From Escherichia phage vB_EcoM_ESCO32, in sequence record OM386658.1: a DNA stretch of 64,000 nucleotides; one strand, given 5' to 3'. A model generated the notes under the pieces. That model ran no database searches, had not been told where the DNA came from, and saw only the letters and a list, made by a program, of their open reading frames with translations. Position 1 is the first letter of the stretch. Every line of letters begins with the position of its first letter. Shown here one piece after another: positions 46,841 to 58,151 of this stretch. Both the position numbers and the translations under genes were made by a program.

Positions 46841-48613
46841 GTGTCTTATGTTGTAAATAAATATGGGTATAACATTGACCTAAGTCAAGAAGGACATACT
46901 GGGTGTCCTCGTTGTATGAAAGGAGGGCGTGATCGATCACAAAACAATTTGATGGTATATGGCTTAGATGCCGATGAAGACCATCGAGGCGCACATTGTT
47001 TTTCTTGTGGCTTTACTATCCCTGATCAAAAATGGTTAAATGCACACGGTGAAGAAATTGAAGAGGAGGATATCTTGGGTAGTGAGTTTAATCCAGAAGT
47101 ACATGATAAACTAAAAGCCAGCACTGGAACTAATCCAAAAGGTTATCGCGGTATTCGTGAAGATATCTCTAAACCTTTCGGTGTACGCTATATGTACGAT
47201 GAAGCTACTGGCGAAGTAATTTCAACACTATACCCTACAACTAAAGATTACAATATTGCTGGGTATAAACAACGTATCGATCCAAAAGATTTTTCGCATC
47301 CTATTGGTGAAACAGGAAAGGATTGTGATCTTTTTGGTGAGTTTAAATATCGTAACCACAGTGGTACTATTCTAATCGTTGGTGGTGAACACGATATGCT
47401 GGCTGCAACACAGATGCTAAAAGATTATAACAAGGGCGGTAAATATCCTGTTCCTGCTGTAGTGTCTGGTACTTGTGGCGAAACATCTCTGCATAAGCAG
47501 CTTCAACATCGTTATAAATTCTTAGATCAATTTAAAAAGATTGTTCTGTGTATGGATAATGATGAAGCTGGACGTGCAGCAGTTGAGAAATGTGTTAAAA
47601 TCTTACCACGTAATAAAGTTTACGTGATGGAACTAACGGATGTTAAAGATCCTAACCAGGCACTAGTAGAAGGAAAAATTGATCATTTTATTGATCGCTT
47701 TTTCAAAGCTAAATTGTACACACCTGCTGGTGTTTACGCTTCTAACGTACTGTATGAAGCAGCCTTGGAATGCCTGGAAGCTAAAATGATCACCCTTCCT
47801 CCATTCATGCGTGTTGCTTCTAATATGTTAGGTGGAGGCTTGGTAGAAGAAGAAATTACTGTTATACTTGCAAAAACAAGTATCGGTAAGACACTGTTGG
47901 TTAACGAGATTACGAAACACATTATTCTTGCACACCCAGAACATACTCTTGGTATTTTATCTTTGGAGGCAACGTATAAGAAGTATTCTCGTAACTTGCT
48001 GTCTTCATTCTTGCATATCCCTCTTCACCGTAAAACAAAAGAAGAGAAGGAAAAGATTTTAAAAGATAATGAAGAAAAGATTCGTGATTTTTACGAACGA
48101 GAAGATGGAACACCACGTTTCTATGTTTGTGATGATCGTGGGGCTAACGTAGATGTGATTAAAGAGAAGGTTCTGGAAATGATTATTTATTTCGGAGTAA
48201 CCATTCTTGTTATCGACCCTTATTCTGACTTGCTTTCTGGTATGGACGTGTCACAACAAGAGGAACTTGCGACGTGGCTGAAACGCATTATGAAAGAGTA
48301 CGCAATAACCATTGTTGTAATTTCACACGTTAAAAAGTCTTCTAACAATAGTAATGAACATATTGTAGAAGATGATGCAATGGGTAGTAGCTTCCTTGCT
48401 AAAGGTGCTGGTATCACAATTGCGCTGGAGCGTGATAAACAAGCTGAAGATCCTATGGAACGTAACCGCACATATTGCTACATTCTAAAGAACCGTGAGT
48501 TCTCAGAGACTGGTGCAGCAGGTAGTTTCTTCTATGAGATTAAAACAGCTACACTTCACGATTACGATCAATACACAAGTAACCCAGAAAATATTTCTGC
48601 TGGTTCTTATTAA
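46841..48613 (+). CDS. bifunctional DNA primase-helicase (T7 gp4-like)
   Basis: ORF track 590 aa; GTG start after AGGAG; zinc ribbon CPRC...CFSCGF; Toprim-like LIVGGEHDMLAA / MDNDEAG; DnaB-type Walker A AKTSIGKT. Confidence 0.85.
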   Translation: MSYVVNKYGYNIDLSQEGHTGCPRCMKGGRDRSQNNLMVYGLDADEDHRGAHCFSCGFTIPDQKWLNAHGEEIEEEDILGSEFNPEVHDKLKASTGTNPKGYRGIREDISKPFGVRYMYDEATGEVISTLYPTTKDYNIAGYKQRIDPKDFSHPIGETGKDCDLFGEFKYRNHSGTILIVGGEHDMLAATQMLKDYNKGGKYPVPAVVSGTCGETSLHKQLQHRYKFLDQFKKIVLCMDNDEAGRAAVEKCVKILPRNKVYVMELTDVKDPNQALVEGKIDHFIDRFFKAKLYTPAGVYASNVLYEAALECLEAKMITLPPFMRVASNMLGGGLVEEEITVILAKTSIGKTLLVNEITKHIILAHPEHTLGILSLEATYKKYSRNLLSSFLHIPLHRKTKEEKEKILKDNEEKIRDFYEREDGTPRFYVCDDRGANVDVIKEKVLEMIIYFGVTILVIDPYSDLLSGMDVSQQEELATWLKRIMKEYAITIVVISHVKKSSNNSNEHIVEDDAMGSSFLAKGAGITIALERDKQAEDPMERNRTYCYILKNREFSETGAAGSFFYEIKTATLHDYDQYTSNPENISAGSY

Positions 48614-49109: not shown

Positions 49110-52100
49110 ATGGGAGCTTTTACTTTCGACATTGAAAGTAACAACTTGCTTAATGACGAAAGTGTAGATTACTTGGCAAGTCCATATCGTTTAAAAGATA
49201 GTTTTGCAATGCACTGTATTGTGTGCGAAAGTCATGATACTGGAGAGATTATTGCTTTCCATGATGGTGATAAATATCTTTTCGATGGTCGTCCGTATGT
49301 TGAGACTGACGGAAAGTATGAATACCGACTGGAGGAATATGAGCATTTAGAATATACCCATTTCCCTCTTAAAGATTTTCCTGATTTTGTAAATGGAACA
49401 GGTAAATTTAAAGGTAATTCAAACTATAAAATTACCAAAGTAGTTGGACATAACATCATTAACTTTGACTTACTGGCAATTAAATTATTTTTTAAACTCA
49501 ACTACAGTATTAAGTACAATACTTGGGGTAATAGTAACATTGAAATTTGTGATACTATGATCTTAAGTAAGACACTAAACCCTGATCGCTTCGGTGGTCA
49601 TAGTCTGGCAGAGTTATCTAAGAAGGCTGGAGGGGATGTTAAAATTGATTTTAGAAAAAACATTCCTGAAACTGAAAGATTTAAAACATTTGCAGCAGAT
49701 ATGCTGTATTACTGTATTTACGATAACAAAGCTAACACCGCAGTGTTCCGTTATTTGATGGAAGAGTGGGGTGATTATAATAAGTGGTCTGAACCATTTA
49801 ACTTAGAACAACGTGTAGCTGATATTATTACACGTCAAGAGCACCGTGGCTTTGCTTTCAATATGAAACAAGCAGAAGATAATATTCGTGATCTGGATGC
49901 TCGAATGGAAGCATGTCGTTTAGAGGCAGAACCTGTGCTACCTCCTAAACCTGCTACTAAAGGTTATTTGAAATCATTCATTCCACCTAAACTACAGTTT
50001 AAAAAGAATGGTGAACCTTCAAGTAACATGATAAAGTTTGCAGAGAAACATTCTGGTGAACTTGTACAAAAAGAAGATGGTTGGTGGCTATTTGCATTAG
50101 GTAAAGAGTTTAAACTACCTATTCCAGCAGAAGAACCTATTTGTGATCCTACAGTACCTGCTACTTTAGACGACACTACACATATTAAAAACTGGTTAGT
50201 TGGTTTAGGTTGGAGTCCATCTGAATATAAAGATAAAGATATCACTCTTAAATCTGGCACTAAGATTAAGAAAGATGAAGCACAGATGGAGAAAGCTATT
50301 CGTGACTATGTTGATCAAACGTTAGCATCTAATTTCTGCCAGGACAGATGTGATCATCTGGAGTGCACACCAGAAACTTTGGAATGGAAACTAAGAGATC
50401 GTATTGCTAAAGCTAAAGGTCGTGGTGTTAAAGTGCTTACTAACCCTTCCTTTACAAAAGGGCAAGAGAAAGATATTTGTCCTAACTTGGAAGCACTAGG
50501 TGAAAAGTTTCCTTATGCTACGCAGATTGTGCAGTATCTTACGTATAAACACCGTAGGAACTCTATTCTAGGGGGTGGTGCTGATTGGGAAGAAGATGAA
50601 GAGGATTATGATAAAGGTTATCTGGCAGCAGTAAGGGCTGATGGTCGTATACCAACTCCTGCTGCAACGTGTGATGCAGCTACGTCTCGTATGAAACATA
50701 GGTTAGTAGCAAATATCCCACGTGTAACATCTCTGTACGGATATGAAATGCGTAACTTATTTGGTGTAGAAGTTCCAAAATACTTCCAAATTGGTTATGA
50801 TTTTGATTCTCTTGAGGCAAAAATAGAATCACACTACTGTGTACCTATGGATGCACAAGCACTAACCCGTAAAGGTTGGGTTGGTTATCACGATCTACAA
50901 GAAGGGGATGAAATCTTAGGATATAACCCAGAAACAGGACTTAAAGAATGGACTAAAGTAAAAGGTAAGGTCTTCTATAAAAATAGTAAGACGTTTGAGA
51001 TTAAAGGAAAATCCCATACTTACCGTGCAACAGCAGATCACCGTTGGTATGTTAATACCCGTAGTAAAGGGAATACTTATGTGCCTAAAGTCAGAACAAC
51101 TGCCGAGCTTTGCACAGGAGATAATATTATTTGTAATGCTCCATTTAACATGGAACAAGATCAGGTAAATAGTTTAACTTCTGTTCAACAAGGTAAATGG
51201 GATGTTCCGTGGGTAGAGCGTGTAGTTAATATGTCTCATGCCGAGCGTGTAGCTTTCTTGGAAGGTTTCTTGATTGCAGATGGTTACTGGCATGAACATA
51301 AACAAAAACCTGTTTGGCGTTGGGCGCAGAACCCAGGTGAACTTTTTGAAGCAGCTTTAACTGCCTCGTACCTGGTGCATGGAGGCAATATCTCTGTAGC
51401 TTTCAATACAAAAGAGCAGAAAGTAAAAGTGGCAACATTGGCTAACCGCTCTCACATTCCTGTTCAAAGTTTGACTATTGAAGAGTGGGGTGTAGAGGAT
51501 GTTTGGTGTCCACAAACAGAACTTGGTACGTGGGTCATGCGTCAGAAAGACTGCATTACCATCACAGGAAACTGTTGGCGGTACGAGCAGGAACCACACG
51601 AATATTGTAATGCTCTATTATTGGAAAAACCTAATGATGTTCATACAATGATGGCTCGACGTATTTCTGACACTATTGGTCGTAAGTTTGAACGAAGCCC
51701 TGCTAAATCTGTTAAGTATGGTATTACTTATGGTGCTCAAGCTGCAAAAGTAGCAAAAACTATAGGTAGTGATATGTATACCGGACAGCTTGTATACGAT
51801 GCTTTCTGGGAAGCTGCAAAACCTCTTGCGCTTCTTAAAGAACGTCTGCATGACTTTTGGGTTAAAACAGGTAAGAAATACATTCTGGGTATTGATGGTA
51901 GGAAAGTACCTACACGATCTGCACACGCAATACTTAACTCTCTGTTCCAGAGTGGTGGTGTTATTTGTGCAAAAAGAGCAATGGTTATCTACGACGATCT
52001 TATCGAAGAAGAAGGATTAGCTGTTGACTTTTTTGTTGATGACTGGAAAAATAAGTCATTCGTTCAACAAATGATTGCATATCACGATGAAGCACAGCTT

Positions 52101-52424
52101 GAAGTAACTCGTGATCTGGTGCATTTTAAATGGTTCTCTAAAGAATCTTTAGGTTGGACTCAAGTTGATGATCCAGAAGAACAAAAGAAAATTGATAAAG
52201 AATGTTTGGATAAAGTTAATGCCTGGAAAGAAGAGGAAGAGAAACGTACTGGCAAGATTTGGGCTAACGTACATGAATCTCCGAAAGGTGGTTGGTTTAC
52301 AGCCTACAGTCGTGCTGGAGAATTAGCATCTATCGCTGTTAATAAAGCTGGTGAGTATTACAATCTTAATGTACCTCTCACTGCTGGTTACGATGTTGGT
52401 AACTCATGGGCCAGTTGTCATTAG
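49110..52424 (+). CDS. family-A DNA polymerase (T7-like) interrupted by an intein
   Basis: ORF track 1104 aa; exo FDIESNNL; motif A DFDSLEAKIESHY; post-intein CWRYEQEPHEY...DVHT parallels T7 pol as recalled; motif B KYGITYGAQ; motif C YHDE. Confidence 0.9.
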   Translation: MGAFTFDIESNNLLNDESVDYLASPYRLKDSFAMHCIVCESHDTGEIIAFHDGDKYLFDGRPYVETDGKYEYRLEEYEHLEYTHFPLKDFPDFVNGTGKFKGNSNYKITKVVGHNIINFDLLAIKLFFKLNYSIKYNTWGNSNIEICDTMILSKTLNPDRFGGHSLAELSKKAGGDVKIDFRKNIPETERFKTFAADMLYYCIYDNKANTAVFRYLMEEWGDYNKWSEPFNLEQRVADIITRQEHRGFAFNMKQAEDNIRDLDARMEACRLEAEPVLPPKPATKGYLKSFIPPKLQFKKNGEPSSNMIKFAEKHSGELVQKEDGWWLFALGKEFKLPIPAEEPICDPTVPATLDDTTHIKNWLVGLGWSPSEYKDKDITLKSGTKIKKDEAQMEKAIRDYVDQTLASNFCQDRCDHLECTPETLEWKLRDRIAKAKGRGVKVLTNPSFTKGQEKDICPNLEALGEKFPYATQIVQYLTYKHRRNSILGGGADWEEDEEDYDKGYLAAVRADGRIPTPAATCDAATSRMKHRLVANIPRVTSLYGYEMRNLFGVEVPKYFQIGYDFDSLEAKIESHYCVPMDAQALTRKGWVGYHDLQEGDEILGYNPETGLKEWTKVKGKVFYKNSKTFEIKGKSHTYRATADHRWYVNTRSKGNTYVPKVRTTAELCTGDNIICNAPFNMEQDQVNSLTSVQQGKWDVPWVERVVNMSHAERVAFLEGFLIADGYWHEHKQKPVWRWAQNPGELFEAALTASYLVHGGNISVAFNTKEQKVKVATLANRSHIPVQSLTIEEWGVEDVWCPQTELGTWVMRQKDCITITGNCWRYEQEPHEYCNALLLEKPNDVHTMMARRISDTIGRKFERSPAKSVKYGITYGAQAAKVAKTIGSDMYTGQLVYDAFWEAAKPLALLKERLHDFWVKTGKKYILGIDGRKVPTRSAHAILNSLFQSGGVICAKRAMVIYDDLIEEEGLAVDFFVDDWKNKSFVQQMIAYHDEAQLEVTRDLVHFKWFSKESLGWTQVDDPEEQKKIDKECLDKVNAWKEEEEKRTGKIWANVHESPKGGWFTAYSRAGELASIAVNKAGEYYNLNVPLTAGYDVGNSWASCH
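50838..51572 (+). mobile_element. intein (245 aa) with LAGLIDADG-type homing-endonuclease motif inside the DNA polymerase
   Basis: starts CVPMDAQALTRKGW (block A), TADHRWY (block B), LEGFLIADGYW (LAGLIDADG-like), ends ITGN followed by +1 Cys; inserted right after polymerase motif A. Confidence 0.7.
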
Positions 52425-52453: not shown

Positions 52454-53041
52454 ATGGTATATGGTCATGGTATTTTTGATGGAGATTTTACTGTAAGATC
52501 TCCTAGAGGAACTATGCACCCTGCTTATATGAAATGGATGTCTATGTTGGGGAGGTGTTACTCCCCTTGTCAACAAGAACGTGATCCTTGTTATAATGGG
52601 GTGACAGTTTGTGAAGAATGGAAGTTGTTCTCCAATTTCTATTCCTGGTTGCAAACTTGGGATGACTGGGAAAACTTAGAACTTGATAAAGATATTATAG
52701 GAGGGAGAGTTTACTCTCCCAATACCTGTCTTTTAGTAACAGGAGATCTTAATAAGTTCTTAGCTTATAGAGTAAGTAAAAGATCTCATGGGACTATGGT
52801 GGGATGTAGTTACGAGAAAGATCGTAAAAAGTATAAAGCCAACATAAAAGTAGGCGGTCGCATGAAAACGCTGGGACGTTTTAATACTGAAATTGAAGCG
52901 CATCTTTGTTGGTTGAAGGCTAAGGCAGAACAGCTTACAAAATTCTTTGAAACTGAAGATGAAAGAGTTGTTCCACATCTTAAAGCACTATATAATGAAA
53001 TGCTTGAGCATGTAGAACAACACAAAGAGTGGACACGATAG
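52454..53041 (+). CDS. AP2-domain DNA-binding protein (possible homing-endonuclease-related)
   Basis: ORF track 195 aa; AP2-like GCSYEKDRKKYKANIKVGGRMKTLGRFNTEIEAHLCWLKA; N-terminal Cys/Trp-rich region of unknown type; no HNH or GIY-YIG motif seen. Confidence 0.6.
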   Translation: MVYGHGIFDGDFTVRSPRGTMHPAYMKWMSMLGRCYSPCQQERDPCYNGVTVCEEWKLFSNFYSWLQTWDDWENLELDKDIIGGRVYSPNTCLLVTGDLNKFLAYRVSKRSHGTMVGCSYEKDRKKYKANIKVGGRMKTLGRFNTEIEAHLCWLKAKAEQLTKFFETEDERVVPHLKALYNEMLEHVEQHKEWTR

Positions 53042-53643: not shown

Positions 53644-53686
53644 GTGTTGACAAACATTATAATTATGTGTTATTATGAGGACTTGA

Positions 53687-54085
53687 ATGACAGATAATCG
53701 TTCTAAAATCTTAGTCGAGACGTTCTACAGTAGAGAAACTAACCGTCTTGAGCTAACTAAAAAAGATGTTGAACCTCAAGATAATACCTTTTTTATTCAA
53801 ATACTATGTCTCTTTGGTGGATACAACCGTTTAACAGTGCGGGTAGAAAACAAAGAGATATCTGAAACCACTATCACAAAACGTGAGCTTATGTTACTAC
53901 AGGATACAATACGAGATGTTTTGGATAATCCTGGAAAAGCAAAAGTAATTAACCTTGGTGGAGAAAAGATACAAATCCTCCATTTCGAAAGTGGTGAAAT
54001 AGGATTTGGTATTGGTCTTGGTAAATACCTGTTGGAAGAAACTGACGCTACTCTTTTACGAGAGTTTTGTGTTAAAGTAATGTAA
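53687..54085 (+). CDS. hypothetical protein (132 aa)
   Basis: ORF track; TTGACA-type promoter just upstream. Confidence 0.55.
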   Translation: MTDNRSKILVETFYSRETNRLELTKKDVEPQDNTFFIQILCLFGGYNRLTVRVENKEISETTITKRELMLLQDTIRDVLDNPGKAKVINLGGEKIQILHFESGEIGFGIGLGKYLLEETDATLLREFCVKVM

Positions 54086-54101: not shown

Positions 54102-55049
54102 ATGCCAGTAATTAATTCTGAAATCGACCGTCGTACTAAAAAAGAAGCATTCTGGGCTGAAGGTATCGTTGAATATGTCAAACTGGATAAGTTTGATGAA
54201 ATGAAAGTCTCTTATATTAAGGTTGCAGGTCAGCCAGATAAGAAAATTGAATCAACTCACAAAGCATCTCTGCTTATTAAAGAGAAAGGTGCTAGTGCTG
54301 ATGATAAAGGTGTTTGGGTTAGCCTAGGTGAAGTTAAACTGCATCCAGAACATGAAAACCTGCAAGTTAAAGATGGTGACAAGTGGGTTACTATCGAAAA
54401 AGGTGTAGAACTAACTATGGATGTTAAACCTTCTGAATGGAATGGCAAAACATACTACAATTCCTCTAAAGGTAAAATCACTATTCTTTCAACAGAAGGT
54501 GTTCAGCAAGCACAATCTTCTTCAAAAGGTGGAAATAAGCCATCTAATAACGAAGGTAGCAAGCCTAACTACAAAAAACGTGATACCGTAGGGATTGAAA
54601 CAGGACACGCTGTAAACGGCGCTCTGGAGCTTCTACGTGCTGGTGTGAAAGGTGATGCTTTCGACTTGGCTGGTGTGGTACAATCTGCAACTGTTACTCT
54701 GAAAGCAGAAATTGCTAAAGATCGTGGCGTTGATGTGACTGACTATGATCTTGGTGCTTCAGTTGGACACGCAATTCTTAACGCTTGTCGTGATCATACA
54801 GGTAAAACTGTAACGGCAGAAGAGATTATTGAAGCTGCTCGTGAAGTTCTTGCTTTGTCTGATAAAGTAGCTGCTGCTATCCGTGGAATGTCTACCCCAG
54901 TACAAGAAGTTAAGAAAGAAACTAAAAAAGTAGAGAAGAAAGAGCCAGCACCGAAAGAACCAGAACCTGTTGTTCAAGATTTCGATGATGATATCCCATT
55001 TGCTCCTATTGGTTTGCAGTATGGTCGAAACTTCCTGCACTGTTTCTAA
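54102..55049 (+). CDS. putative ssDNA-binding protein with SSB-type acidic tail motif
   Basis: ORF track 315 aa; AGAGGAGAA RBS; near C-terminus QDFDDDIPF matches the E. coli SSB tail as recalled, followed by 16 more residues. Confidence 0.5.
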   Translation: MPVINSEIDRRTKKEAFWAEGIVEYVKLDKFDEMKVSYIKVAGQPDKKIESTHKASLLIKEKGASADDKGVWVSLGEVKLHPEHENLQVKDGDKWVTIEKGVELTMDVKPSEWNGKTYYNSSKGKITILSTEGVQQAQSSSKGGNKPSNNEGSKPNYKKRDTVGIETGHAVNGALELLRAGVKGDAFDLAGVVQSATVTLKAEIAKDRGVDVTDYDLGASVGHAILNACRDHTGKTVTAEEIIEAAREVLALSDKVAAAIRGMSTPVQEVKKETKKVEKKEPAPKEPEPVVQDFDDDIPFAPIGLQYGRNFLHCF

Positions 55050-55071
55050 TAGTTAAATATTGTGTAAATAT

Positions 55072-55097
55072 AAGGAGCCTAACGGCTCCTTTTCTTT
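55072..55097 (+). terminator. rho-independent terminator
   Basis: AAGGAGCCtaacGGCTCCTT followed by TTCTTTG. Confidence 0.55.
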
Positions 55098-55109
55098 GAA
55101 GGAGATATA

Positions 55110-55841
55110 ATGAGCGAATTTGTAAACAACACCGCGTTAAACTACCTGCAAACCCTCGAAAGCAATAGTGTAGATTTGATTCTTACTGACCCACCATATG
55201 CTATTTCTCGTGACACAAATTTTCAATCTGGAGAGCCTACTGGAAAAGATACAGATAGATTCCGTGTATCTTACAACTTTGGGGATTGGGATGTTGTAGA
55301 TATTCCTTACTTTAAAGAAGTATTCAAAGAAGCCTATAGGGTGCTTAGAAAAGGTGGTACTTGCATAGTTTGGTATGATATCTGGAAGATCCAGGAGCTA
55401 CGTGAAATCCTTGAACCGCTTGGTTTTCGTATGTTCCGTACTATTGAATGGATTAAAACAAACCCTGTACCCATCAACAGTGGTGTTAACTACCTTAGTA
55501 ACGCTAAAGAGATGGCTATTGTTTGTGTTAAAGGTTCTAAGCCAACCTTCAATGCCTCCTACCACAAGGGTGTGTTTGAGTATCCTATCTATCAAGGAGC
55601 AGATCGTTTTCATCCGACACAAAAACACTTGACTTTGTTTTGTGACCTTATTAATATACATACCAACGAAGGAGATGTAGTCTTAGACTTCTTCTCTGGA
55701 AGTGCAACAACACAAGTTGCGGCACTTTTAACAGGTAGAGAATACTTAGGCTGTGAAGCCGATGTAAATATTTTTAAGCAAGCGGAGGAACGACTAAATG
55801 AGTACACTGAACAGCAAAATCACCCTGAAAGCACTGATTAA
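55110..55841 (+). CDS. DNA amino-methyltransferase (N6-adenine or N4-cytosine), beta class
   Basis: ORF track 243 aa; DPPY catalytic motif (LILTDPPYAI) precedes SAM-binding DFFSGSATT. Confidence 0.8.
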   Translation: MSEFVNNTALNYLQTLESNSVDLILTDPPYAISRDTNFQSGEPTGKDTDRFRVSYNFGDWDVVDIPYFKEVFKEAYRVLRKGGTCIVWYDIWKIQELREILEPLGFRMFRTIEWIKTNPVPINSGVNYLSNAKEMAIVCVKGSKPTFNASYHKGVFEYPIYQGADRFHPTQKHLTLFCDLINIHTNEGDVVLDFFSGSATTQVAALLTGREYLGCEADVNIFKQAEERLNEYTEQQNHPESTD

Positions 55842-56229
55842 CAACGGTATGAACCTGGACTCTGGTCTGTCTCCAAAGATTTCTATGGCACGACTAGAAC
55901 AAGTTACTGGTCTTCGTCAAGTAAGTAATGGCGGTAAGATTATTCGTGATGACGCTGTACCTTTTAATAAATTTCAGATTGAACGTCATTACGATCCTGT
56001 AACTGCAAGTCTCACTGGTGTAACTTTCTCAGGTTATCGTACTGCCGGATACCAACGTAAGGTTGTAGCTGAACGTATTAAAAATCGCAAACAGAAAATT
56101 GCAACATTGAAGAAACTAGTAGAGAAAGATGTTTCAGAACTTCTTAACCTGTATGAAACTCTTGAGACAAAAGGTGAAGATCATAAACTCTTCTCTAAAG
56201 AAGATGTGAGCGTAATTTTCACTGATTAA
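55798..56229 (+). CDS. hypothetical protein (143 aa)
   Basis: ORF track; last plus-strand gene before the convergent late genes. Confidence 0.5.
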   Translation: MSTLNSKITLKALINNGMNLDSGLSPKISMARLEQVTGLRQVSNGGKIIRDDAVPFNKFQIERHYDPVTASLTGVTFSGYRTAGYQRKVVAERIKNRKQKIATLKKLVEKDVSELLNLYETLETKGEDHKLFSKEDVSVIFTD

Positions 56230-56237
56230 GATAAAAG

Positions 56238-56264
56238 AAAAGGAGCCTATTGGCTCCTTTTTGT
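56238..56264. terminator. bidirectional terminator between convergent transcription units
   Basis: AAAGGAGCCtatTGGCTCCTTT with T runs on both sides. Confidence 0.5.
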
Positions 56265-58151
56265 TTATGTAACATTGACTGTAAATCTGACAAGAGGTGA
56301 TAACACGTCATTATCAGCATCATAGTGTGCAACATCAAACACTGCTGTACCTGCTGCAAACCCGTATTGTTCAACCTGATCTGCATAAGTAAATGTGTAA
56401 GTGTTAGTATCAAGAGTTTGTTCTGTAAGAATTGCTGCTGTGAGGACGTTTACATTTCGGAAGTAATGTTTGGTATATCCTGCTGGTTCCCAAGAAATAA
56501 TTGCATCTTGGTTAGCTTGTCTTACAGCGGCTCCTCCTGTTGGAACAGACATATCAACCCAAACAGGTGGTGTTGATGTTAAATCTGTACCGTCTGCTGC
56601 TGATTTAGCAAGTTTTGTAGCTGCTGTTTGATATACAGAAGAAATATAATGGATACGACCATCAATACCTTCTTCATAAACATAACCACTGTAACGTTCA
56701 GCACCATCTACCCAAGAACCAATGATAACATCATCACGTGCTGTAGAGATGGTTCTTTGTACATTTCTGTACTTCTGCCAATCCACACCATTAACTTCTA
56801 CACCATATAAATAAGAACGTCCTAGGATCTGCCAAACAATTTTTGCTTGAGAAGCAGGAACTATTGTACGCATCTTATCAAAGATAGCTATCGTAGCATC
56901 ATGGTAACGTGTAGTGTTACTGTACCTACCTGCAACAGTCGAAGATGCTGATACAGCATCATTTTCACCTTGTCCCCAAATAATTGCTTTAACCTTACTT
57001 GCATAAGGTGTGACTTTAGTGATAAAGTTAGTTAAGCATGGCCCATCTGCTGTGTTATCCAGATCATACCAGTAGTTGTCTGGTGTACCTGTTCCAGCTT
57101 TATCGTCAGCATATTTATCTGCTGCTGATGATCCAGAAGCTGTATTTAACGGAAGAACTTCAGCATTTGCTAAACCACGTTGCGTAGCATATGCATTACG
57201 GGTTGTTGTGCTACTCATTACTGCTTTATTTGCACCAGATAATTCTGTAAAGTGTGCATTTACGTTATCTTGTCCAGCAAAGACAATAACTTCTTTAATG
57301 AACGAATCATCTGTAGCTATTGAGTTATTAAAGATAACGGCTGCTGCTTTGGTGCTCTTAACGCTAATTTTAAGGTATGTTGGAGCAAACCCATAAAGAG
57401 GAATAGAGTCAGAGATATCAAAGTAAGCGTAAGTATTCGTGGTTGTTGTAGTCCACTGAACACTATTATCACTTAAATCTAATACTTCTACAGTATAAGT
57501 ATCACCGTCTAGTGGATCAGTTACATCCCAAGCAACACGAACGTCTCCATAACTGTTTGCCACGGCTGTTACATTAGAAATAACAGGAATAGCATTAACA
57601 CCTAAATAAGAACTATCAGAGGCCACAACTGTTCCTTGATACGTTGCAGTACAACCTATACGGCAATTGCCATCTTTAAGAGCAGTTATTAATCCTGTAG
57701 GGCTTACAGTAGCTACTTCTGGATCTGTTGTGGTGTATGTAATTACCATATCTGGAAGGTCTTTAGCACCTTCTGGACTGATTGTAGCAACCAACTGTTG
57801 AGTAGTGCCTACATCCATAGCCGATAGACTTTCAGTGTACACACTTAATTCTGAAGCATAACCACCAGATTGATCAGTTAAGACAGCACCTAAATTATTT
57901 TTAGCTGTCATTATTGCATCAAAACCACCTTCAGCAACAAACTCCATCATACCATTATTATCTATAACCATTTTGGTATTATCTGAAGATGAAAAAGCTA
58001 TATCAAATAACGCACCATCTTCGGGTGTAACTGTATATGTCAGTTGTTTTTTACTACCAACTATTGCAATGCCAATAGAGGAAGTGGTTATAGATGTAGC
58101 TGTTACTACTGAAGCTGATGTTGTTGACATAAATAAAGGAATAGGATACAT
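56265..58151 (-). CDS. tail fibre/spike protein with Ig-like domains and SASA/SGNH-type carbohydrate esterase domain
   Basis: ORF track 628 aa; Big_2-like ITYTTTDPEVATVSPTGLITALKDGNCRI; esterase-like VIVFAGQDNVNAHF and AIIWGQGENDA. Confidence 0.65.
   Translation of the reverse strand: MYPIPLFMSTTSASVVTATSITTSSIGIAIVGSKKQLTYTVTPEDGALFDIAFSSSDNTKMVIDNNGMMEFVAEGGFDAIMTAKNNLGAVLTDQSGGYASELSVYTESLSAMDVGTTQQLVATISPEGAKDLPDMVITYTTTDPEVATVSPTGLITALKDGNCRIGCTATYQGTVVASDSSYLGVNAIPVISNVTAVANSYGDVRVAWDVTDPLDGDTYTVEVLDLSDNSVQWTTTTTNTYAYFDISDSIPLYGFAPTYLKISVKSTKAAAVIFNNSIATDDSFIKEVIVFAGQDNVNAHFTELSGANKAVMSSTTTRNAYATQRGLANAEVLPLNTASGSSAADKYADDKAGTGTPDNYWYDLDNTADGPCLTNFITKVTPYASKVKAIIWGQGENDAVSASSTVAGRYSNTTRYHDATIAIFDKMRTIVPASQAKIVWQILGRSYLYGVEVNGVDWQKYRNVQRTISTARDDVIIGSWVDGAERYSGYVYEEGIDGRIHYISSVYQTAATKLAKSAADGTDLTSTPPVWVDMSVPTGGAAVRQANQDAIISWEPAGYTKHYFRNVNVLTAAILTEQTLDTNTYTFTYADQVEQYGFAAGTAVFDVAHYDADNDVLSPLVRFTVNVT

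What the first reader, a model, noticed from the sequence alone, without database searches (positions are those of the whole stretch)
54102..55049. SSB-like protein with the host SSB tail motif DFDDDIPF placed internally
The protein contains ...QDFDDDIPF, identical to the C-terminal interaction peptide of E. coli SSB as recalled, but 16 further residues (APIGLQYGRNFLHCF) follow, so the Phe is not C-terminal as the SSB tail requires. This is either a phage SSB with a modified tail or a decoy that competes for SSB-interacting host proteins. The exact match to an enterobacterial-type tail also hints at the host group.
Basis: partly seen in the sequence, partly recalled or inferred. Interest (0 to 1): 0.45.

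Follow-up and report, generated by a model that had tools for sequence, protein, structure and literature searches.

The report
Phage SSB with a capped host-type tail
This E. coli phage's single-stranded-DNA-binding protein carries the host SSB docking peptide (DFDDDIPF) followed by a conserved 15-residue add-on, which also sits on many unrelated phage SSBs and one primase-helicase; I found no description of it, and it probably changes which partner proteins the tail can recruit.

Summary
ORF 54102-55049 (+) encodes a 315-aa protein with DFDDDIPF at residues 293-300, identical to the last 8 residues of E. coli SSB. It is followed by 15 residues (not 16), APIGLQYGRNFLHCF. It is not a sequencing error: 37 phi92-like phage records match at 99% or more.

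The model shows an OB-like domain, a linker, a four-helix domain and a disordered tail. The gene lies in the replication module.

Most homologues (79 of 100) end exactly at ...IPF. The extension appears at about 14 separate places in the family tree.

The same add-on, consensus AP[IV]GL[QPM][YF]x[RN][HN][FA][IL][HY]x[ILF], follows the tip on at least seven protein families, including canonical PF00436 SSBs, prophage and plasmid SSBs, and one primase-helicase. Identical peptides are encoded by up to 7 synonymous DNA variants, so the peptide is under selection. Other bacterial lineages have their own add-ons, for example APLHHLAGA in Pseudomonas and APEWR in Rhizobiales.

In the large myoviruses an HNH homing-endonuclease gene often overlaps the extension's end.

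The function is inferred only: a portable module that removes the free carboxylate canonical SSB partners need and adds a second hydrophobic motif. No partner was identified and no literature was found.

The parts
53647..53676 (+). Promoter-like site (TTGACA-18-TATTAT, 11 of 12, TG extended) upstream of the two-gene unit
   Evidence: Consensus scan. This is a pattern match only; 3 sites were found against 4.2 expected in shuffles.
53687..54085 (+). Upstream ORF of 132 aa (phrog_16560, unknown function), 16 nt upstream of the SSB-like gene. The same neighbour is present in BME3, ESCO13, Mt1B1_P17, L248 and L250-252.
54102..55049 (+). SSB-like gene of 315 aa (phrog_4477; no Pfam match)
54102..54491 (+). 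Residues 1-130: beta-rich OB-like domain
54492..54587 (+). Residues 131-162: disordered Gln/Ser/Lys/Asn-rich linker
   Evidence: pLDDT 47-66.
54588..54881 (+). Residues 163-260: four-helix domain with family-conserved ETGHAVNGAL and DYDLGASVGHA motifs; function unknown
   Evidence: pLDDT 91-98 with helices 163-179, 186-208, 215-230 and 239-260. G164, G168, H169, A170, G218, G222 and A224 are invariant or at least 90% conserved. Shared with proteins of other phage groups.
54882..54977 (+). Residues 261-292: disordered Lys/Glu/Pro-rich linker, highly variable between homologues
   Evidence: pLDDT 50-70. Mean pairwise identity of the 20 residues before the tip is 14%.
54978..55001 (+). Residues 293-300: DFDDDIPF, identical to the C-terminal tip of E. 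coli SSB (SSB-Ct)
   Evidence: Mean pairwise identity 82% even among extended proteins.
55002..55046 (+). Residues 301-315: type-1 extension APIGLQYGRNFLHCF, which caps the tip
55021..55056 (+). ORF in the +1 reading frame, overlapping the extension, encoding MVETSCTVSNS and then a stop. In Mt1B1_P17 the same ATG opens the HNH endonuclease gene (MVETSCIASKVCFKCG...). Here the frame closes after 11 codons, so no endonuclease gene is present.
   Evidence: The similarity is forced by the shared extension DNA, so it is weak evidence for a lost endonuclease gene.
55072..55101 (+). Terminator-like hairpin (AAGGAGCC-TAAC-GGCTCCTT) plus T tract, right after the gene
   Evidence: It resembles the hairpin at 56231-56275 that directly follows the tip-only allele in L248.
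55110..56229 (+). Cargo found only next to the extended allele of this lineage: an N6/N4 DNA methyltransferase (55110-55841, PF01555) and a phrog_20244 ORF (55798-56229). Tip-only relatives ESCO13 and L248 go straight from the SSB stop to the convergent tail genes.

Best explanation
The gene encodes the SSB-type protein of a phi92-like (Justusliebigvirus) E. coli phage. It has an OB-like DNA-binding domain, a helical domain of unknown role and a long disordered tail that carries the host SSB docking peptide DFDDDIPF. In the family's common state this peptide is the true C-terminus. In this lineage a 15-residue 'type-1' extension has been added. That extension is a selected, portable peptide module, not read-through noise.

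It moves between otherwise unrelated phage replication and recombination proteins. This probably happens by recombination within the conserved DNA that encodes the tip. In the large myoviruses it often travels with an HNH homing endonuclease gene that overlaps its end.

Inferred mechanism: the add-on removes the free alpha-carboxylate of the terminal Phe, which canonical SSB partners grip, and supplies a second, largely hydrophobic motif (APIGLQY followed by a short probable amphipathic segment). The promiscuous hub peptide thereby becomes a composite motif with a different, narrower partner preference. That partner could be a host protein that varies between bacterial lineages, or a replisome component shared by SSB and helicase.

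Shown: the gene, the fold class, the conservation, the distribution and the selection on the peptide. Inferred: ssDNA binding, loss of canonical docking and the new partner.
For: Identity and context:
- It is a phi92-like phage.
- The gene order is primase/helicase, polymerase, nucleotidyltransferase, phrog_16560 ORF, this gene.
- Fold.

The free tip is the common state:
- 79 of 100 homologues end at ...[DE]xD[ILV]PF.
- Extended alleles sit at about 14 separate places in a neighbour-joining tree.
- ESCO13 (tip only) and Mt1B1_P17 (extended) are 98.8% identical in DNA up to the IPF codons and unrelated beyond them.

The extension is a module. The same motif follows the tip on these proteins:
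- the PF00436 SSB of lambdoid phage mEp235
- a phrog_44 SSB of Vibrio phage K433
- DUF669/phrog_9002, phrog_2544/32668 and phrog_3284 proteins
- plasmid SSBs
- the primase/helicase of Klebsiella phage KpS8

Selection on the peptide:
- The window and Mt1B1_P17 extensions are identical in protein and differ at 6 synonymous sites.
- APVTLPFPRHAIHAI is encoded by 7 DNA variants.
- Across 63 extended proteins, mean pairwise identity is 14% in the linker, 82% in the tip and 74% in the first 7 extension residues.

Lineage specificity:
- Type 1 is found in Enterobacterales, Vibrio and Alteromonadales-type hosts.
- APLHHLAGA and APISRLLLNII are found in Pseudomonas.
- APEWR(G) is found in Rhizobiales.
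- APHFDGQF is found in Psychrobacter.

The carboxylate requirement is stated in PMC3159472.

A shared tail on SSB and helicase parallels T7, where the gp2.5 tail and its terminal Phe bind the polymerase and helicase/primase (as summarised in bioRxiv 10.64898/2026.02.22.705581).

The module is independent of the endonuclease gene: 83 of 84 type-1 loci in viral or genome contigs have no such gene downstream.
Against: - No partner was identified and nothing here measures binding.
- AlphaFold gives the tail pLDDT 50-61 with no docking onto the protein itself.
- The extension is dispensable for this protein family: near-identical phages live with or without it.
- In this family it co-occurs with inserted DNA (HNH gene or methyltransferase cargo), which fits hitch-hiking.
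- Lineage specificity could reflect phage ancestry rather than adaptation to a host partner.
- The last five residues of the extension are poorly conserved (23% mean identity).
Confidence: 0.5

Rival explanations
1. Hitch-hiking scar. The extension has no function of its own in this phage. It was dragged in when a homing endonuclease gene or other cargo inserted at the 3' end of the SSB gene, using the conserved tip-coding DNA as the crossover or homing site, and it persists because it is tolerated.
For: In the phrog_4477 family, the 3' end of the extension is overlapped by the start of an HNH or endonuclease-VII-like gene (phrog_2340/1035) in Mt1B1_P17, L250, L251, L252 and rV5. Tip-only relatives ESCO13 and L248 have neither the extension nor any cargo. 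The window itself has cargo (methyltransferase plus phrog_20244 ORF) exactly between the extension and the ancestral terminator. Near-identical phages differ only in this block.
Against: The peptide is conserved with only synonymous change, both here (6 synonymous and 0 non-synonymous differences against Mt1B1_P17) and in contexts without an endonuclease gene (7 DNA variants of one peptide). 83 of 84 type-1 loci outside the big myoviruses lack the endonuclease gene. Nepoznato has the endonuclease gene directly after a tip with no extension. The extension is far more conserved than the adjacent linker.
Confidence: 0.17
2. Decoy or inhibitor. The tip plus extension binds one or more host SSB-interacting proteins more tightly than host SSB does, blocking for example ExoI, RecQ, RecJ or PriA. 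Alternatively, capped subunits poison the host SSB hub.
For: The tip stays about 82% conserved even when capped, so it is still used. The extension types are lineage-specific, as expected if they contact the variable surface next to a conserved pocket. Prophage alleles with canonical OB cores are common in E. coli (at least 169 of 5,426 genomes).
Against: No binding data exist. Known partners need the terminal carboxylate, so tighter binding is not expected a priori. The same tail on a primase/helicase fits recruitment better than inhibition.
Confidence: 0.15
3. Pro-peptide. The extension is cleaved off after Phe300 by a host or phage protease, unmasking a canonical IPF-COOH tip at the right time or place.
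For: The F-A-P junction is nearly invariant (A at 41 of 42 and P at 40 of 42). The tip is fully canonical. Tip-only and extended alleles are interchangeable in nature.
Against: No protease or cleavage motif is known to me for this junction. Conservation of seven or more residues beyond the junction, with different lineage-specific sequences, is more than a cleavage site needs. There is no proteomic evidence either way.
Confidence: 0.08
4. Artefact. A sequencing error or lost stop codon created a spurious read-through.
For: None beyond the unusual position of the motif.
Against: 37 independent phage records carry the ORF at 99% identity or more and 17 at 95-99%. The extension is conserved across hundreds of phage, plasmid and prophage genes.
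Confidence: 0.01
5. The extension is a beta-clamp-binding motif. P-[IV]-x-L-x-[YF] resembles the hexapeptide QLxLx[LF], and would tether the SSB or helicase to the host sliding clamp.
For: By inspection (my own knowledge of the motif): PIGLQY, PVTLPF and PVGLQF match positions 2, 4 and 6 of QLxLxL/F. Like Pol II and Pol IV motifs, it lies in a flexible C-terminal tail.
Against: The defining Gln is replaced by Pro in nearly all sequences. The clamp pocket is conserved across bacteria, whereas the extensions are lineage-specific and the Pseudomonas and Rhizobiales types do not fit the motif at all. Eight more conserved-length residues follow the putative motif.
Confidence: 0.05

Closest known systems
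E. coli SSB C-terminal tip (SSB-Ct, ...PPMDFDDDIPF-COOH), the docking peptide for about 20 genome-maintenance proteins
   Same: The eight residues DFDDDIPF are identical. The peptide sits at the end of a long disordered, Pro-rich linker behind an OB-type domain. In most members of this phage family it is the true C-terminus.
   Different: Here 15 more residues follow, so the Phe alpha-carboxylate that ExoI, RecQ and other partners bind (PMC3159472) does not exist. The core is not a PF00436 SSB and carries an extra four-helix domain.
Phage T7 gp2.5 (SSB) and gp4 (helicase-primase) acidic C-terminal tails ending in Phe, which bind T7 DNA polymerase
   Same: An acidic, disordered tail with a critical aromatic residue. 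In Klebsiella phage KpS8-type phages both the SSB-like protein and the primase/helicase end in the same tail (...DDDTPFAPIGLQYAKHAIYVI), as gp2.5 and gp4 share theirs. The T7 facts are as summarised in bioRxiv 10.64898/2026.02.22.705581.
PHROG 4477 (unknown function) and GenBank 'putative single-stranded DNA-binding protein' of phi92-like, phAPEC8-like and rV5-like myoviruses
   Same: Full-length match, E = 2.5e-101. The protein is 100% identical to those of phages JLBYU50, Eryne and BME3.
   Different: Nothing differs; this is the same protein. The family has no experimental characterisation that I could find.
[quoted passage not shown]
   Same: These are phage recombination or replication proteins read out through the last residues of an SSB tail. 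Type-1 prophage SSBs sit between a Rad52-like annealase and an exonuclease.
   Different: In those cases the functional residues are the true C-terminus. No extension after the IPF-type motif is described.
Free-standing HNH homing endonuclease genes of T-even-like and other large phages, which insert next to conserved genes
   Same: phrog_2340/1035 genes lie directly on the 3' end of the SSB gene, are present or absent between near-identical phages, and start inside or just after the SSB coding sequence.
   Different: Cleavage specificity and homing have not been shown. The window itself has no such gene at this position.

Membership tests
Canonical bacterial/phage SSB (Pfam PF00436) | Sequence match to the PF00436 OB-domain model | tested here: not met
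   No Pfam family at E <= 1. A profile of 66 homologues matches PDB SSB chains only through the tail, at profile positions 272-297.
Canonical bacterial/phage SSB (Pfam PF00436) | OB fold | tested here: met
Canonical bacterial/phage SSB (Pfam PF00436) | Disordered linker ending in an acidic tip D-D-D-[IL]-P-F | tested here: met
   Residues 261-300 have pLDDT 50-70, and DFDDDIPF lies at 293-300.
Canonical bacterial/phage SSB (Pfam PF00436) | The tip Phe is the C-terminal residue, with a free alpha-carboxylate for partner binding | tested here: not met
   15 residues follow F300. The requirement is stated in PMC3159472.
Canonical bacterial/phage SSB (Pfam PF00436) | Binds ssDNA; forms a homotetramer | not testable with these tools
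   This needs purified protein (gel-shift assay, size-exclusion chromatography).
PHROG 4477 (phi92 / phAPEC8 / rV5-type SSB-like proteins) | Full-length profile match and conserved position in the replication module | tested here: met
   E = 2.5e-101. The same neighbours are present in BME3, ESCO13, Mt1B1_P17, L248 and L250-252.
Type-1 capped SSB tail (defined in this report) | [DE]xD[IVT]PF followed by A-P-[IV]-[GT]-L-[QPM]-[YF]-x-[RN]-[HN]-[FA]-[IL]-[HY]-x-[ILFV] and then the stop codon | tested here: met
   APIGLQYGRNFLHCF fits every position. The position frequencies come from 42 15-mers.
T7 gp2.5-type SSB | gp2.5-like OB fold with an acidic tail ending in Phe | tested here: inconclusive
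Beta-clamp-binding motif (QL[SD]LF / QLxLx[LF]) | Gln at position 1 with Leu/Phe at the hydrophobic positions | tested here: not met
   Position 1 is Pro in 40 of 42 sequences. The other lineage-specific extensions do not fit the motif. The motif definition is from my own knowledge.

The most novel reading that the evidence does not exclude
Phage, prophage and plasmid SSBs across Proteobacteria, and some phage helicases, carry lineage-specific 'caps' after the universal DDDIPF hub peptide. Examples are type 1 in enterics and vibrios, APLHHLAGA in Pseudomonas and APEWR in Rhizobiales. These caps would form an unrecognised system for re-addressing the SSB tail. Each cap abolishes generic carboxylate-dependent docking and directs the protein to one chosen host or phage partner. 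Alternatively, the cap shields phage ssDNA from SSB-recruited host nucleases or from SSB-sensing immunity. The caps would spread by recombination, and by a homing endonuclease family, through the conserved tip-coding DNA.
Probability: 0.35. Interest if true: 0.75.

Novelty: new variant of a known kind. Interest (0 to 1): 0.6.

Why it matters
The SSB C-terminal tip is among the best-studied protein-interaction hubs in bacteria and is a drug-target candidate. Its rule is that the last Phe must be free. Hundreds of natural mobile-element SSBs break that rule in conserved, lineage-specific ways, including prophage alleles in about 3% of complete E. coli genomes that are annotated simply as 'ssb'.

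If the caps change partner choice, they are ready-made natural probes of hub specificity. They could also explain how phages separate their own ssDNA transactions from the host's. This bears on recombineering portability, which depends on SSB tails, and on defence systems that sense phage SSBs (Retron-Eco8, Hna, AbpAB, DARNA).

The case is directly testable because natural isogenic pairs exist (ESCO13 versus Mt1B1_P17). For annotation, it shows that a 'DDDIPF' motif does not by itself imply a functional canonical tail.

Tried and rejected
- **Sequencing error or read-through:** rejected.
- **Pfam assignment:** no hit. A profile search against PDB sequences matched only the tail.
- **Known structure containing the extension:** none. 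The tail profile matches PDB chains only up to IPF.
- **Literature:** full-text searches for DDIPFAP, IPFAPIG, IPFAPVG, PIGLQY and PVGLQY returned nothing. Searches on phi92 SSB, acidic tip plus prophage, SSB-Ct mimic, and phage SSB tail extension found no description of an extension.
- **Second copy of the tail in the window:** none, for example on the primase/helicase, which ends ...NISAGSY.
- **Extension always arrives with a homing endonuclease:** true for most extended alleles of this family, but rejected as a general rule. 83 of 84 type-1 loci elsewhere lack the endonuclease gene, and nepoznato has the gene without the extension.
- **Truncated endonuclease gene in the window:** the short ORF in the +1 reading frame at 55021 shares its first six codons with the Mt1B1_P17 endonuclease gene. 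That identity is forced by the shared extension DNA, and tblastn finds nothing more. I do not claim a remnant.
- **Upstream ORF as a conserved partner:** the 132-aa upstream ORF has no similarity to rV5 ORF215.
- **BFVD fold search:** returned only uncharacterised phage proteins.
- **Clamp-binding motif, ClpX or Lon degron, and BRC-like motif:** considered by inspection only. None fits the conserved positions or the lineage-specific variation.

Full report
**1. The observation**

The window holds an ATG-initiated ORF at 54102..55049 (+) of 315 codons, preceded by GAGGAG. Its product ends ...EPEPVVQ-DFDDDIPF-APIGLQYGRNFLHCF.

- DFDDDIPF is residues 293-300 (nt 54978-55001).
- The extension is 15 residues (301-315), not 16.
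- A profile of such tails aligns to the C-terminus of E. coli SSB (PDB 1eqq_A, residues 158-178 of 178), and related chains end ...NEPPMDFDDDIPF.
- It is the only such motif in the six-frame translation of the window.

**2. Not an error; source of the window**

A tblastn search against 50,697 phage records finds the same 315-aa protein in Justusliebigvirus (phi92-like) E. coli phages. It is 100% identical in JLBYU50, Eryne, outra and BME3. It matches at 99% or more in 37 records, at 95-99% in 17 more, and at 96.8% in phi92. Some records call it 'single-stranded DNA-binding protein'; most call it hypothetical.

**3. What the protein is**

- Pfam gives nothing. PHROGs gives phrog_4477, unknown function, E = 2.5e-101.
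- An AlphaFold2 model built on 66 homologues (mean pLDDT 84) shows four regions: a beta-rich domain at 1-130 (pLDDT 89-96), a disordered linker to about 160, a four-helix domain at 163-260 (pLDDT 91-98), and a disordered tail at 261-315 (pLDDT 50-70).
- The gene sits in the replication module, after a Toprim/DnaB-type primase-helicase, a family-A polymerase, a nucleotidyltransferase and a small phrog_16560 ORF.
- A promoter-like site lies at 53647-53676 and a terminator-like hairpin at 55072-55091.
- An SSB role is therefore well supported by fold class, architecture and context, but ssDNA binding is not shown.

**4. The common state of the family is a free tip**

- Of 100 homologues from 5.8 billion proteins, 79 end at ...[DE]xD[ILV]PF and 21 carry an extension of 5 or more residues.
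- In a neighbour-joining tree of the cores, extended alleles occupy about 14 separate positions.
- ESCO13 (tip only) and Mt1B1_P17 are 98.8% identical in DNA up to the IPF codons, and homology stops exactly there. Mt1B1_P17's extension peptide is identical to the window's.
- A relative with 80% identity (P0006, locus L248) also ends at IPF and runs straight into the terminator and the convergent tail genes. The window has about 1.2 kb inserted at that point: extension, hairpin, N6/N4 methyltransferase and phrog_20244 ORF. L248's terminator matches window 56231-56275.

**5. The extension is a conserved, portable module**

A 27-residue tail query finds 756 phage records. 194 of them cover the extension, and 45 plasmid records do so too. 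The same add-on follows the tip on the following proteins:

- a canonical PF00436 SSB of lambdoid phage mEp235, ending ...DFDDDIPFAPVTLPFPRHAIHAI
- a phrog_44 SSB of Vibrio phage K433, ending ...IPFAPVGLQFGKKFMHVI
- DUF669/phrog_9002, phrog_2544/32668 and phrog_3284 proteins
- the rV5 homologue
- the DNA primase/helicase of Klebsiella phage KpS8, ending ...GPDDDTPFAPIGLQYAKHAIYVI

The consensus from 42 15-mers is A-P-[IV]-G-L-[QPM]-[YF]-x-[RN]-[HN]-[FA]-[IL]-[HY]-x-[ILF]. Across 63 extended proteins, mean pairwise identity is 14% for the 20 linker residues, 82% for the tip, 74% for APIGLQY and 23% for the last five residues.

Identical peptides are encoded by several synonymous DNA versions:

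- APVTLPFPRHAIHAI has 7 variants.
- APIGLPFPSHSIYAL has 4 variants.
- The window and Mt1B1_P17 differ at 6 of 15 codons, all synonymous.

This is purifying selection on the peptide. It argues against read-through noise.

**6. Sibling caps in other lineages**

Scanning for DDDIPF followed by Ala-Pro returned the capped maximum of 120 viral and 120 genome loci. The add-ons are short and differ by lineage:

| Add-on | Lineage |
|---|---|
| Type 1 | Proteus, Sodalis, Xenorhabdus, Escherichia, Enterobacter, Kluyvera, Idiomarina, Colwellia, Pseudoalteromonas and others |
| APLHHLAGA-like, APISRLLLNII | Pseudomonas |
| APEWR(G), APEVR | Rhizobium, Devosia, Agrobacterium, Mesorhizobium, Bradyrhizobium |
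| APHFDGQF | Psychrobacter |
| Further types | Paenalcaligenes, Kistimonas, Competibacteraceae, Gallionella |

The pattern I searched for forced the 'AP', so its generality is not established. The mEp235-type allele is present in at least 169 of 5,426 complete E. coli genomes, annotated simply as ssb.

**7. Link to homing endonuclease genes**

In the phrog_4477 family, the gene just downstream of extended alleles starts inside the last codons of the extension. It encodes an HNH or endonuclease-VII-like protein (phrog_2340/1035) with a shared N-terminal CxxC...FYKH..DGH.NKCK.C finger. This holds for Mt1B1_P17, L250, L251, L252 and rV5.

- Nepoznato has the same kind of gene directly after a tip without any extension.
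- Two temperate loci (L098, L142) also have it, but 83 of 84 type-1 loci elsewhere do not.
- The window has no such gene. The ATG in the +1 reading frame at 55021 gives only MVETSCTVSNS and then a stop.

I conclude that the endonuclease gene is an occasional passenger. It probably exploits the conserved tail-coding DNA and helps move the block. It is not the reason the peptide is conserved.

**8. How it most likely works**

An internal Phe lacks that carboxylate, so canonical docking should be weakened (inference). Yet the tip stays conserved when capped, and the first half of the cap is almost as conserved. The unit under selection is therefore tip plus cap. The simplest reading is a composite motif with altered partner preference.

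KpS8-type phages put the same tail on both SSB and primase/helicase. This recalls T7, where the gp2.5 tail and its terminal Phe bind the polymerase and helicase/primase (summarised in bioRxiv 10.64898/2026.02.22.705581). Temperate phages without a polymerase also carry the tail, which points to a host partner or a very general one.

I give about 0.5 to this model as a whole. The components differ in strength:

- About 0.85 that this is the phage SSB.
- About 0.8 that the cap is a selected module.
- About 0.4 for the specific capping and re-addressing mechanism.

Rivals:

- Hitch-hiking scar: 0.17.
- Decoy or inhibitor: 0.15.
- Cleavable pro-peptide: 0.08.
- Clamp-binding motif: 0.05.
- Artefact: 0.01.

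**9. Comparison with what is known, and novelty**

The protein is an already sequenced and partly annotated member of phrog_4477. It works like an SSB but fails two membership features of canonical SSB: the PF00436 match and the terminal position of the tip.

I found no paper in the searchable library that mentions a sequence after the IPF tip or any of the cap motifs. Subscription-only literature was not searched. I rate it a new variant of a known kind.

It is of moderate to high interest because it contradicts the 'free terminal Phe' rule at scale, and natural isogenic pairs make it immediately testable.

Noticed in passing
L006 3992-4399 (true start probably about 3942), L253 1536-1967, L007 3044-3667, L250 4444-4872, L251 4468-4896, L252 4414-4761, L098, L142: A family of HNH/endonuclease-VII-like genes (phrog_2340/1035) shares an N-terminal CxxC...FYKH..DGH.NKCK.C finger. 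These genes sit directly on, and overlap, the 3' end of SSB genes in several unrelated phages, and they are present or absent between near-identical genomes. They are candidate homing endonucleases whose homing site is the conserved SSB-tail coding DNA.
   Followed up: partly
L002 1018-3081 (Klebsiella phage KpS8): The DNA primase/helicase (phrog_239) ends in ...GPDDDTPFAPIGLQYAKHAIYVI. This is the same tip-plus-cap tail as the SSB-like protein of these phages. The window's own primase/helicase (46841-48613) lacks it.
   Followed up: partly
viral and genome loci L008-L247: Other short, lineage-specific add-ons follow DDDIPF: APLHHLAGA-like and APISRLLLNII (Pseudomonas), APEWR(G)/APEVR (Rhizobiales), APHFDGQF (Psychrobacter), APLLARCEYVI (Paenalcaligenes), APLGYRQ.. 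(Kistimonas), and others.
   Followed up: partly
window 49110-52424, insertion at about 50841-51575: The family-A DNA polymerase is 1104 aa, against 859 aa in phage BME3. Residues 578-822 are an insertion with a Hint-like start and a LAGLIDADG-like motif (FLEGFLIADGYW), which suggests an intein.
   Followed up: partly
window 52454-53041: An HNH endonuclease gene (phrog_953, E = 3e-76) occupies about 506 nt (52457-52962) that are absent from BME3 between the polymerase and the nucleotidyltransferase. It is another mobile endonuclease in the replication module.
   Followed up: partly
window 55110-56229: An N6/N4 DNA methyltransferase (PF01555) and a phrog_20244 ORF lie between the SSB-like gene and the convergent tail genes. 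Tip-only relatives (ESCO13, L248) lack both. The hairpin at 55072-55091 resembles the one at 56231-56275.
   Followed up: partly
E. coli genomes (for example NZ_CP027587.1 523722-523866): The mEp235-type prophage ssb with the capped tail occurs in at least 169 of 5,426 complete E. coli genomes, and partial matches occur in 408. It is annotated simply as 'ssb: single-stranded DNA-binding protein'.
   Followed up: no
phage records MG065639.1, MG065647.1, MG065662.1: Three records are labelled 'Campylobacter phage' (A150, D#, A142; host C. jejuni). A150 carries the window's protein at 98.7% identity. D# and A142 match like the rV5-type E. coli phages around them in the listing (35-42% identity). 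The host labels look doubtful.
   Followed up: no
window 54588-54881 (residues 163-260): The four-helix domain is shared at 42-50% identity with proteins of Acinetobacter phage ABPH49, Pectobacterium phages phiTE and CB7, and a Salmonella phage 40 protein annotated as SSB. It appears to be a separate, widely shared module of unknown role.
   Followed up: no
window 53687-54085: A 132-aa ORF (phrog_16560, unknown function) always precedes the SSB-like gene in Stephanstirmvirinae-type loci and shares its promoter-like site. It is not similar to the ORF that precedes the rV5 homologue.
   Followed up: partly
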